From: Zootoca vivipara
Taxonomy: Eukaryota
Direction: 5' to 3'
DNA length: 64,000 bases
Assembly (NCBI RefSeq): GCF_963506605.1
Contig: NC_083288.1
Coordinates: 33,170,001 to 33,234,000 of the forward strand
Below, in pieces: positions 58,714 to 63,222 of this stretch. Numbering within the stretch: position 1 is the stretch's first letter; the number at the start of each line of letters is the position of its first letter. The translations under genes were made by a program, and so were the position numbers. The notes under the pieces were generated by a model. The model did not search any database and was not told where the DNA came from. It saw only the letters and a list, made by a program, of their open reading frames with translations.

Positions 58714-61402
58714 GTGACTGATGGAGTTGGGGAAGTGCTTGGAGAACAGTTACTTCAAGGTTTCATTTCTTTAAAAAATTAAAAGTTGCAAGGGATCCTG
58801 GGAAATCATACCTTCTCTGTGCCCATATTTTTCCAGGGACAGTCCCAGATTTACAGAAGCTGTACCTGTTTCTGATTTGATCCTGGAATGTTCCACTTTT
58901 CCTTAGGACGTCTGTTCTTCCCAACCTAGATAGTTCCAGGGTAAAGCCATAACATTAAAAGAACAAAAGTCCTGGTGAGCCCAGATTCAAATGTAGTTCT
59001 GAATACACCCTGAGAACCATGTTTCAAAATGAACTCCTGGCACAATTGTCAAAGGCAGTGGCGGAGCGTTTTGGGGGTGGGGTGCGCAGTGACGTGGCGC
59101 GCATTTGGGGGGCAGAGCGCATCATGCGCAATGACGTAGCAGCGCATTTTGGGGCGGGACGCGCCGTGCGCAGGGTGCACATTTTGGAGTGGGGTAGGCA
59201 GCGGCGATGGCGCCCCTGGGACGCACCGCCCCCACTGCCCCTATCTTCCTACCCCGCTGGTCAAAGGTGTTGATTTTTCAACCAATTGGGAAAAGATTGG
59301 CTGCATTCACAGACAATCATCTGTCAGGTTATTAAGCTGACATATGCACATGATGCCTTTTGCCCGCAACCACCCCACATAGCCTATTTCCTCCTCCCTT
59401 CACCACAAGCTGTGATTAAAGTAGGAAGCTTCTAAGGATGCTTCATGTTTCATGTTTTGTCCAAACCAGCAAACTGTGGTTACCAAATTCAGAACTAGCC
59501 AGGCAATTAAACCAATATCAACCCACTTTTTTATAAACTGGTTTGTTTAAAAGTGACTAAACATACTACCCTGGTTCTCAGAACATGGGATATTAGAGTT
59601 AACCAGAGGCTTCTTGCTTTGAGTATGGCATGCCCAAAGAGAGGAGTGAAGGGGCTCTGTTCACAAGCAAAGAATTTGTGCATACCTTGGCTTGTTAAAT
59701 CGAGACATGTTTGTCTGAAGTGGGCCAGTGTAAACAGGTTCCCTTCCCCCTCGTTCATACATACAATCCTACACTGTGTCTTTCTTCTATAATGACTCTT
59801 ACCTGGGGTATCTTCTTTCTTTGTTTCCCTCAGGTGCTACAAGCTCAAAAGCAGGTAAGAGTTGTTTGATACATTGGAAGGAGTTTTGCACAGGAATCTC
59901 TGTGGAGGAAGCTAAAGAAAAGGCCTCCTAAAAACCAGAGGTCTTCTAATCCAACATCCTCACCTTAGACAGGATACTCCTTGATATGCCACATTGATAT
60001 GAGGAAGATAAACCCACATCAAGCTGATGTTGCCCCACCACAAGTAAAGAGTAGAGCAAACAAGGTGTCGCATTCTAGATGTGGTTGCATGGTCTTCAGT
60101 AAGAATTGATTTTAGGTGTCCAACTTCCTTAAGCCATGGTGCCAAGCTGCACGCTGTAATGCCAGGGTGAAGGAAATATTCAGTCCTCAAGATTCTCCTC
60201 AGTTCATGCTCCCTCCAAAGGCTCCACTCCTTTCCCAGTGTCACCCACCCCCACCAGCCAGCCATTCATATTGCCCTTGGGCTCTTCTGCCTGCTTGGAA
60301 TGTGTCCTTCAACTGTGCTGCTACCTTTTTCTTATCTGGATGGAGAGATGTCAGTGCAGGGATGCAGAAGCCTCTGGACTTTTGCGTGGCTGGAATGTGC
60401 TCTACTTTACAAAAGTTAACAGTCTCAATTCCTTTGCCCACTAAGCTGTGGAAGAAAGGCCCACCCATCAAGCATCTCATATAAAGAATCTTGAAATGAC
60501 TCTTGTCATCTTAATCTCTGACCCATGGAAACCAAACACCCCAAGGTTTTACATGGTTCTACTTCTAGCTGTGGTGATGGAAGACGTATGGGAGAAAGGG
60601 ATGCCCAAACTGAGAGCTAGGAGTCCAGGACTCAAGGATTCCACTACCACATATACTGTATGAGTAAGGATGGGTGAGAATTTAAATTTGGTTCACATTT
60701 AAAGGTAATTAAAGGCACTTTCTGAAGCAGCATATGTAAAGCAAAATACAGCCATCCTTCAAACTTCACCCTTTTCCTAATTTTGCACAGCAGAAATAAA
60801 ACTGCTATAAATGTGCTAAGAAATAAAAAAAAGTCAATTTCACTTACCAGATGAAATGCAAATTAAACCCAGGAGAATCAATGACAATAAATATGGTTTT
60901 AAAATCTGCAAAAAAAAACCACCCTACTTGTAAACGAATTCAAATTTAGACATTTTGTTTCCTCGTGTTCTCCACCTCTTCTGCTACATTACTTCCGTTA
61001 TGTGTATGCTGCAAACCGTAATGGCAAACCCTCTTATTTCCTCTTCCACAGAGAGTGGGCAGCCGATAAATGCTCCACGAATAGTTGGGGGACAACCAGC
61101 CTCTGATGGGTCATGGCCCTGGCAAGTCAGCATTTCACTGTTTTCTTATCCTATTTGTGGGGGCTCCCTCATAGCTGAGCAGTGGGTCCTGACAGCAGCT
61201 CACTGCTTCTTCTTTGGGTGAGTATCATTCAGTATGTATTGCTTTGAAGCCATTATAAAGCTTCACCTTACAAGACCAGACTAATTTCAGCTGCCTACCA
61301 GCCAGCTTCCTGTTGTCTTAGGCCTCAGCTGCACCATACATTTAAAACACTATCATACCACTTTAAACAGCCATGGCTTCCCCCGCAGAAACCTGGGGGC
61401 TG

Positions 61403-61433
<31 letters not shown>

Positions 61434-63222
61434 TTATTTATACCCCCCCCCATCTGGCTGGGTTTCCCCAGCCACTCTGGGCGGCTTCCAGAAGGATATT
61501 AAAATACAATAATCTATTAAACATTAAAAGCTTCCCTAAACAGGGCTGCCTTCAGATGTCTTCTAAAAGTCTGGTAGTTGTTGTTCTCTTTGACATCTGG
61601 TGAGAAGGTGTTCCACAGGGCGGGTGCCACTACCGAGAAGGCCCTCTTGCCTGGTTCCCTGTAACTTGGCTTCTCGCAGCGAGTGAACCACCAGAAGGCC
61701 CTCGGCACTGGATCTCAGTGTCCGGGCAGAATGATGGGGGTGGAGACGCTCCTTCAGGTAGTTTGCTGAGAGCTGTTAAGAAAGTCCTATTCCTCACACA
61801 GAACTACAGTTCTCAGAGTGGTTTCAAAATCCATCCTTCTTCCCAGGGAATTGAACTCTTGGAATTGTAGCTCTTTGTGGGGTATACAGTTAGCATGAGC
61901 CACAGGAAATCAAACGTCAGCCAAATCTTTTGCCCTTGTATTCACAGAGTCGGGCCCATGTTCCAATACGATGTCCTCCTAGGTGCCCATCAGCTCTCAA
62001 ACCTCTCTGATAATGCTGTAGCATCTGCCGCGGAACAGATTATCCTCCATCCTGGCTACAATGGCAGCATTGACCACACAGCAGATATTGCTTTAATCAA
62101 GCTGAAGTCGCCTGTGAACTTCACTGACTACATCCTCCCCATCCGCCTGCCAGGGTCCTCTACAAGCTTCTCTTCAGGAGAATACTGCTGGGTAACTGGA
62201 TGGGGAGATATTCAAACTGGAGGTGAGGGGTTTTCTTTGTAGCACTTTTTCAGACTCTGTGACTCATCCAAATGAACAGTTCTGGGATGTGGCAGTGGGG
62301 GGGGGCGTGTCCACAGGGGCGATTGCCCTGGGCGCAAAACTGTTAAGGACACAACATTTCAACATCCAGTGCTGCCTCAATACACCTGTGCACTTCCATC
62401 ACTGGGCTCTGTTGAAAACGGTTTCTCCATGCAAACCAGGAAGTGACCTCTCCAGACAACAGAACGACTCTTCTTTTCTTATCTCTGTTGCTGTGATCAC
62501 CTGGGCGACGCGGATGCCATTAAGTGGTTGAATGCACGTGCGTACTCCATCCATTTCCCTCACGGAAGTAACATAGAAAAAATGCATACCAAAATGAAAT
62601 TTGCACAAAAATGCTGGTGAATTTTCATGAGGATTTTTAATAAATAATTGCAAAATGAACATTTCCCCTCCCCCCCAAGGCCAATCCTACCACTAGGCAG
62701 AGTGGTACAGGTGACTCAGGTGCTGAACTGTACTCAGAACTGTAGGTGTCATGTGATCTGCCTTGCGCTCTCAAACTAGCCCGGTGCCCTCAAGTACAGT
62801 GGAAGCTTCTGTCCCACTGCCTGTGTTAAAGAAAACACCAGTATTGTTCATGGAATCTCAGGGGGAGGGAATTTTGTATTTTGCCTCAGACAGCAAAATG
62901 TATTGGGCTGTTAGGTTTCCCTAGAAATAAATACGGGAGGAGATGTTGTCCCAAAGTGTGGCAGCTACATATCTACAGTGTGCTCAGTGAAAATTATGTC
63001 CTACTGAATGCCTCTGCATTCCATGAATACTTTCCCTTTCTCTCTCTTCTAGTGCCTTTACCTGCCCCACAGACTCTCCAGCAAGTGAAGGTGCCGCTCA
63101 TAAGCCGAGAAGTATGCAATGCTCTCTTTAACAGTGTCTCAGCGCAGGGCTCAAGGAAGGATCCTGTCAAGCAGGATATGATCTGTGCTGGTTACCCAGA
63201 AGGTGGGAAAGATTCTTGCCAG
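58656..63222 (+). CDS. Gene D: trypsin-like serine protease (PRSS27/PRSS33-like), 3'-partial. Exons 58656-58713, 59834-59854, 61052-61217, 61948-62222, 63053-63222; final exon lies right of the window
   Basis: Open spliced frame [40 protein letters not shown]...TAAHC...ADIAL...ILPIRLP...CWVTGWG...[16 protein letters not shown]. Confidence 0.9.
59056..59259. mobile_element. GC-rich hAT MITE in gene D intron 1
   Basis: CAGTGGCGGAG...CCCCGCTG; 8-bp TSD GTCAAAGG. Confidence 0.85.
59834..59854 (+). CDS. Gene D micro-exon 2 (21 nt, GATSSKA)
   Basis: TTTCCCTCAG acceptor, GCAG|GTAAGA donor; similar to gene C DAASSEA. Confidence 0.85.
61052..61217 (+). CDS. Gene D exon 3 (R|IVGG, TAAHC)
   Basis: ORF 60955..61221; canonical splice sites. 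Confidence 0.95.
61405..61760 (-). mobile_element. L2 3' fragment with (ATT)n tail
   Basis: Closely similar to 9295-9665. Confidence 0.85.
61948..62222 (+). CDS. Gene D exon 4 ([15 protein letters not shown])
   Basis: ORF 61877..62242; canonical splice sites. Confidence 0.95.
63053..63222 (+). CDS. Gene D exon 5 ([10 protein letters not shown]...KDSCQ)
   Basis: ORF 62881..63270; 170 nt. Confidence 0.95.

What the first reader, a model, noticed from the sequence alone, without database searches (positions are those of the whole stretch)
61054..62146. Gene D has lost both cysteines of the light-chain/heavy-chain disulfide
Seen: paralogs A, B and C have the propeptide Cys (VCGR, VCGQ, VCEA) and its partner Cys122 in chymotrypsin numbering (PACLP, PVCVP, PICLP). 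Gene D has ESGQP (AGT, 61054-61056) and PIRLP (CGC, 62144-62146). Each codon is one base from a Cys codon, and they sit in different exons. The other cysteines and the His/Asp/Asp189 residues visible in the window are intact. Known: prostasin-, testisin- and PRSS27-type enzymes are two-chain proteins held by this bond, whereas mammalian alpha/beta tryptases release the propeptide. Inference: the paired loss looks like compensation in a functional gene, giving a single-chain tryptase-like mature enzyme in a lizard paralog.
Basis: partly seen in the sequence, partly recalled or inferred. Interest (0 to 1): 0.72.

Follow-up and report, generated by a model that had tools for sequence, protein, structure and literature searches.

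The report
Lizard protease lost its chain-linking disulfide
An intact, spliced serine protease gene shared by three genera of lacertid lizards has lost both cysteines that normally tie the cut-off propeptide to the enzyme, so it is predicted to act as a single-chain enzyme that likely stays membrane-anchored: a real but modest variant of a known family, not a tryptase.

Summary
In detail: AGT (61054-56) and CGC (62144-46) replace the Cys1 and Cys122 codons, and 14 of 15 paralogs read in this genome keep both cysteines. Gene D is functional by every sequence test: open 309-codon frame, GT-AG introns, intact exon 6 beyond the window, full triad and Asp189, a spliced contig, dN/dS 0.45 against paralog E. 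The same Ser/Arg pair stands in Lacerta and two Podarcis species. 'Tryptase-like' is only half right: D keeps a hydrophobic C-terminal tail and an Arg/Lys activation site, and groups with its two-chain sister E. Cys122 alone was lost five more times in reptiles with Cys1 kept, while D holds the only Cys1 loss in the tree. That suggests Cys122 went first and Cys1 followed, but selection for the second step is only weakly supported (about 0.07-0.10 by chance, one event). Tissue, substrate and activity are unknown. New variant of a known kind; modest interest.

The parts
56678..56764 (+). TATA box (56678-56683) and a likely non-coding first exon ending at a GTAAG donor
   Evidence: region homologous to the upstream region of gene E; start site inferred
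58560..58713 (+). Exon with 5' UTR and signal peptide (ATG at 58656)
   Evidence: its 3' part also appears in the P. lilfordi model P0133
59834..59854 (+). 21-base exon, start of the propeptide
   Evidence: AG/GT borders; same peptide in P0133
61052..61217 (+). Exon with rest of propeptide, activation site R-IVGG (Ile16 at 61081), Cys42-Cys58 pair and His57 (61201-61203)
   Evidence: contig of run X9
61054..61056 (+). Ser codon AGT in place of propeptide Cys1
   Evidence: column is Cys in 77 of 77 other rows of alignment A1
61948..62222 (+). Exon with Asp102 (62084-62086), position 122 and Cys136
   Evidence: spliced contig of run X9
62144..62146 (+). Arg codon CGC in place of Cys122
   Evidence: column is Cys in 71 of 77 other rows of A1
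63053..63222 (+). Exon with Cys168, Cys182, Asp189 (63211-63213) and Cys191
63223..64000 (+). Start of the last intron. The last exon lies just beyond the window's end (locus L001 5962-6201, i.e. 962-1201 bases past position 64000): Ser195, Gly216, Gly226, Cys201, Cys220, hydrophobic tail, stop
   Evidence: spliced contig of run X9

Best explanation
Gene D is an intact, spliced, lacertid-specific duplicate of a PRSS27/prostasin-type protease gene that lost both cysteines of the Cys1-Cys122 bond and is predicted to give a trypsin-specific enzyme that is single-chain after activation yet likely still held at the cell surface by its C-terminal (probably GPI) anchor. Shown: codons, open frame, triad, Asp189, splicing, conservation in three genera, purifying selection. 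Inferred mechanism: signal peptide removed, zymogen anchored by the tail, cleavage after Arg/Lys15 frees Ile16, and the roughly 16-residue propeptide, no longer bonded, can diffuse away. In a C-terminally anchored protease the bond holds only this short peptide, so losing it should cost little. Inferred history: after the D/E duplication Cys122 changed first (a change tolerated repeatedly in reptiles), then the orphan Cys1 was lost by drift or weak selection against a free thiol.
For: Open 309-aa frame, five GT-AG introns, eight Cys, H57/D102/S195, D189/G216/G226. Run X9 contig joins the last three exons at their borders. dN/dS D-E 0.45, bootstrap 0.32-0.64; 18 silent against 16 replacement changes polarised to D where site counts are 192:622. 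Mature-domain identity between genera 90-93% for D against 86-93% (C), 85-90% (E), 84-90% (F). D clade SH-aLRT 100, sister to E at 92, all lacertid rows. Tail hydropathy 1.9-2.1 in D of three genera against about 0.5 in tail-less enzymes. Six changes at Cys122 and one at Cys1 in an 87-row reptile clade; the Cys1 change lies in the 7-10% of tree length that lacks Cys122. Prostasin catalytic domains solved with inhibitors have Ser at 122, and C122S enterokinase is about as active as a commercial enzyme (PMC3863954, passages). The model folds like prostasin, TM 0.94-0.95 by target length for the top hits.
Against: No activity, protein or tissue data. The 6% of raw RNA run X24 that was read gave no depth in the bin inside exon 4, and X9 is RNA only by guess. 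D's tail is the least hydrophobic of the anchored group (1.9-2.1 against 2.4-3.3), no GPI predictor was run, and the two P. muralis models end differently. Both losses map to one branch, so their order is not observed. The coupling rests on one event. Gly2, Pro4 and Trp207 are kept, so the propeptide may stay bound without the bond.
Confidence: 0.7

Rival explanations
1. Adaptive change: release of the propeptide, or Arg122 itself, gave D a new property (activation, inhibitor sensitivity, partner), and is now maintained by selection.
For: D's stem branch is twice E's (0.20 against 0.10), after which D is as conserved as or more conserved than its paralogs. The Arg codon holds a CpG, and CpG sites are unstable here (4 of 27 shared between D and E, against 39 of 91 GpC), yet Arg stands in four species.
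Against: No excess of replacement changes on the D branch (16 against 18 silent). Arg codons of the other species were not seen. Selection against a new free thiol would also keep Arg.
Confidence: 0.12
2. D is a soluble, tryptase-like enzyme.
For: Same two cysteines missing as in human beta-tryptase; a marsupial tryptase also has Arg at 122; D's tail is short and weakly hydrophobic.
Against: Tail conserved in three genera; R/K activation site; no Tyr pair at the place where tryptase has one; best structural match is prostasin; tree position beside E.
Confidence: 0.08
3. D is really the second domain of a C-D read-through polyprotease, as two public gene models have it.
For: Lacerta P0001 and P. 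lilfordi P0133 fuse C and D.
Against: The two models use different linkers; C has its own tail and stop; D has its own TATA box, signal peptide exon and ATG; the 168 unplaced letters of the X9 exon-3 contig fit the 21 + 154 bases of D's own upstream exons in length only.
Confidence: 0.05
4. D is a decaying pseudogene, or the codons are assembly errors.
For: Each change is one base from Cys; no depth in the exon 4 bin in run X24.
Against: Same residues and open frames in three genera; dN/dS below 1; spliced contig; independent contigs with the same letters.
Confidence: 0.02

Closest known systems
Prostasin (PRSS8) / PRSS27 / PRSS33 / testisin / gamma-tryptase group of C-terminally anchored trypsin-like proteases
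   Same: Best sequence and fold match is human prostasin (E 3e-77; TM 0.94); signal peptide, short propeptide, R/K-IVGG site, D189/G216/G226, four core disulfides, hydrophobic tail. Public names of the nearest relatives are mostly 'serine protease 27-like' or '33-like'.
   Different: Prostasin's light and heavy chains are disulfide-linked (PMC4436870, passage); D lacks both cysteines of that bond.
Mammalian alpha/beta tryptases
   Same: Neither Cys1 nor Cys122 (beta-tryptase has Thr at 122 and no Cys in the aligned propeptide).
   Different: Tryptase activates at VG-IVGG and has no tail; heparin-bound tetramer (recalled). D keeps the tail and a basic activation site; the loss is independent.
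Gene E of the same cluster (identical to P0011, labelled serine protease 27-like, Zootoca vivipara)
   Same: Sister gene, same exon layout, alignable exon-plus-intron blocks about 73-82% alike.
   Different: Keeps Cys1 and Cys122.
Engineered C122S catalytic domains (prostasin structures, enterokinase)
   Same: Single-chain domain without the bond; folded and active.
   Different: Laboratory constructs; D is natural, fixed in a clade, and lost the partner too.

Membership tests
Peptidase S1A, trypsin-like | His57/Asp102/Ser195 triad and Ile16 activation motif | tested here: met
Peptidase S1A, trypsin-like | Asp189, Gly216, Gly226 pocket; chymotrypsin fold | tested here: met
   (fold on ortholog P0004)
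Peptidase S1A, trypsin-like | Measured proteolytic activity | not testable with these tools
   needs recombinant protein
Prostasin/PRSS27/PRSS33 anchored group | Descent from this group (tree, cluster position) | tested here: met
   nested among reptile 27/33-like proteins, sister to E; one-to-one orthology to a human gene not resolved
Prostasin/PRSS27/PRSS33 anchored group | C-terminal hydrophobic anchor signal | tested here: met
   hydropathy only, weakest of the group
Prostasin/PRSS27/PRSS33 anchored group | Two-chain mature form through Cys1-Cys122 | tested here: not met
   Ser and Arg; this is the variant feature
Prostasin/PRSS27/PRSS33 anchored group | Actual GPI attachment | not testable with these tools
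   no predictor or assay run
Alpha/beta tryptases | No Cys1 and no Cys122 | tested here: met
Alpha/beta tryptases | No C-terminal hydrophobic tail | tested here: not met
   tail present in three genera
Alpha/beta tryptases | Gly before IVGG (non-tryptic final activation step; its role recalled) | tested here: not met
   R in D and Lacerta, K in Podarcis
Alpha/beta tryptases | Tetramer interface tyrosines and heparin-dependent tetramer (recalled) | tested here: inconclusive
   the YY pair is absent in the alignment; oligomer state not tested

The most novel reading that the evidence does not exclude
Lacertid gene D is a living, selected counterpart of a halfway state between two-chain anchored proteases and single-chain soluble tryptases: anchored but single-chain, with propeptide release changing its activation or inhibition. 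With the alligator-lizard copies that lost the tail and Cys122 but kept Cys1, reptiles would replay the separate steps of tryptase origin and make them testable in matched sister pairs (D against E).
Probability: 0.2. Interest if true: 0.55.

Novelty: new variant of a known kind. Interest (0 to 1): 0.32.

Why it matters
It is a natural, clade-wide loss of a bond that nearly all prostasin-type proteases keep, with a close sister gene (E) that retains it. The pair offers a clean test of what the tethered light chain does (zymogen stability, activation, inhibitor binding), and shows that loss of the bond and loss of the membrane anchor can be uncoupled. The surprise is limited: the change is made routinely in the laboratory without loss of activity, single-chain relatives exist, and no phenotype is tied to the gene.

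Tried and rejected
AlphaFold comparison of propeptide docking: low confidence in both the D ortholog (pLDDT 36-53 over residues 11-30) and E (48-59 over 21-40); uninformative. Representative search: the best 150 were mostly long multi-domain models without names; of 96 scorable domains at 40% identity or more, 87 had both Cys, 4 neither, 5 only Cys122 by my window rule; unnamed and fusion-prone, so used only to say that paired absence is not unique. Run search listed no holder on record as RNA. Ortholog DNA could not be obtained, so there is no between-species dN/dS and no view of the orthologs' Arg codons. First exon coordinates were off by one and were corrected; the counts are void. The careful tree did not finish; the quick tree was used. 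Earlier findings: none near. Nine paper searches listed nothing on this gene or on loss of this bond in reptiles; four look-ups of two recalled papers on tryptase and marapsin evolution found nothing held, so the literature check is incomplete. One search gave no hit at a too strict cut-off.

Full report
Observation. The window holds four prostasin/PRSS27-type genes: A and B on the minus strand, C and D on the plus strand. Positions 61054-61056 read AGT and 62144-62146 read CGC. The nearest paralog, E, lies about 20 kb downstream, beyond the window, and has TGT and TGC at the same codons, with identical neighbouring codons. In the window plus 40 fetched stretches of the same contig I could read both positions in 15 family members; 14 have both cysteines and D has neither.

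Gene model. D has coding exons at 58656-58713, 59834-59854, 61052-61217, 61948-62222, 63053-63222 and, past the window's end, 64962-65201 in window numbering (locus L001). All five introns are GT-AG and the frame is open for 309 codons. It encodes a signal peptide, a propeptide ending in R-IVGG, His57, Asp102, Ser195, Asp189, Gly216, Gly226, eight cysteines, three N-glycosylation sequons and a hydrophobic tail. A TATA box and a likely non-coding exon lie at 56678-56764. Gene E's translation is identical to P0011, labelled Zootoca vivipara.

Is it real and expressed? In run X9 (RNA by guess) a 641-base contig joins exons 4, 5 and 6 at their borders with 2 other letters, whose places were not shown. 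A second contig starts its match at the exon 3 acceptor and covers the Ser codon with 0 other letters. Unspliced contigs of runs X15 and X16 cover the Arg codon with 0 other letters. A DNA search of the genome with exon 4 found only D, E and C, so a processed copy is an unlikely source of the spliced contig. Against: in the 6% read of raw RNA run X24 the bin inside exon 4 had no depth, and reads on exons 5 and 6 carried fixed differences, likely from paralogs. The tissue is unknown.

Conservation and selection. Orthologs with Arg122 exist in Lacerta agilis (P0001), Podarcis muralis (P0004, P0005) and P. lilfordi (P0133); P0001, P0004 and P0133 also show Ser1. A quick IQ-TREE tree of 130 domains (SH-aLRT only) gives a D clade at 100, an E clade at 98 and D+E at 92, all lacertid rows; the amphisbaenian and teiid relatives lie outside and keep both cysteines. 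Nei-Gojobori dN/dS between D and E over 271 mature-domain codons is 0.45 (bootstrap 0.32-0.64), like the other paralog pairs (0.38-0.55). Single-base differences polarised with C and F give 18 silent and 16 replacement changes on D, 11 and 22 on E, where sites are 192 and 622. Between genera the mature domain of D is 90-93% identical, C 86-93%, E 85-90%, F 84-90%. D is under purifying selection, and the losses predate the split of the three genera.

How unusual is it? Of 159 aligned stretches from 132 proteins, 123 had both cysteines, 9 only Cys1, 8 neither, 3 only Cys122, and 16 could not be scored at one or both sites. The 8 with neither are three D orthologs, a marsupial tryptase, three trypsin-like domains of fish models and a truncated first domain of a turtle model (P0026), which may be a second paired loss in a decayed copy; it was too short for the tree. 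Of the 9 with only Cys1, one is a trypsin fusion artefact; the others are three alligator-lizard copies, two side-necked turtles, a boa, a horned lizard and a pond turtle. In alignment A1 (78 of the 132 proteins, chosen by me, mostly single-domain models) Cys1 is kept in 77 of 77 other rows and Cys122 in 71 of 77. On the 87-row reptile clade there are 6 changes at Cys122 and 1 at Cys1, after dropping two rows with truncated or alternative N-termini (P0038, P0064). Lineages without Cys122 make up 7-10% of the tree length. So the only Cys1 loss fell where Cys122 was also gone, which is suggestive, but it is one event, and single-species rows could be polymorphisms or errors.

Mechanism. [quoted passage not shown] In such a C-terminally anchored enzyme the bond tethers only a short peptide. 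Prostasin domains solved with inhibitors have Ser at 122, and C122S enterokinase has activity like a commercial enzyme (PMC3863954, passages). I infer that D is activated after Arg/Lys15, cuts after Arg/Lys, is single-chain and stays anchored. Its tail scores 1.9-2.1 on the best 13-residue hydropathy window in three genera, below the other anchored relatives (2.4-3.3) and far above tail-less enzymes (0.5). The ortholog's model matches prostasin best. Propeptide docking could not be judged. The Arg codon contains a CpG, and CpGs are unstable in these genes, so reversion to Cys should be easy; Arg in four species hints at selection against it, but the other species' codons were not seen.

Comparison with tryptases. 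Human beta-tryptase lacks both cysteines, but activates at VG-IVGG and ends without a tail. D shares only the missing bond and arose independently. The view that soluble tryptases came from anchored two-chain ancestors is recalled; the two papers were not held. PMC4646688 (passages) leaves the tryptase locus of lower vertebrates out of its analysis. PMC4612780 (passages) added only that prostasin is GPI-anchored. PMC3318437 (passages) lists PRSS27, PRSS33 and PRSS8 among genes raised in the pregnant uterus of a skink: a lead for tissue, not evidence on D. Nine searches (listings only, apart from the five papers named) showed nothing on this gene. No supplements were read.

Verdict. A real, conserved, probably functional variant: anchored yet single-chain. 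Paired absence also occurs in 4 of 96 unnamed domains, and a different cysteine pair is lost in neighbouring gene C, so such events recur. Interest 0.32.

Noticed in passing
window 47289-47291 and 47430-47432 (gene C, last exon): A second paired cysteine loss: TAT (Tyr) and CGT (Arg) where Lacerta and Podarcis orthologs, and gene F, have a Cys just after Cys201 and one in the tail. That the two form a bond is inferred. Seen only in this species.
   Followed up: partly
P0051, P0088, P0107, P0022 (Elgaria): Expanded copies without Cys122 and without a hydrophobic tail, keeping Cys1 (where the model includes it) and carrying an extra Cys after the His57 exon; two also lack Asp189 and Cys191. More tryptase-like in layout than D.
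   Followed up: partly
P0094, P0100 (side-necked turtles): Shared Ser at 122 with Cys1 kept in two turtle genera: a long-lived unpaired cysteine.
   Followed up: partly
P0001, P0133: Public models fuse genes C and D ('serine protease 53-like', 'TMPRSS9-like') with different linkers; likely annotation artefacts that hide gene D.
   Followed up: partly
G000:C13 near 33294600, minus strand (within L007): A paralog with a non-canonical activation motif (RLIGW) and a diverged last exon; may be inactive.
   Followed up: no
window 40750-40790 (gene C, exon 3): Shortened propeptide ([12 protein letters not shown]) with Glu in place of the usual Gly after Cys1; orthologs have Gly.
   Followed up: no
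runs X15, X16: Runs labelled with other organisms hold unspliced pieces matching gene D across an exon-intron border with 0 other letters; origin not examined.
   Followed up: no
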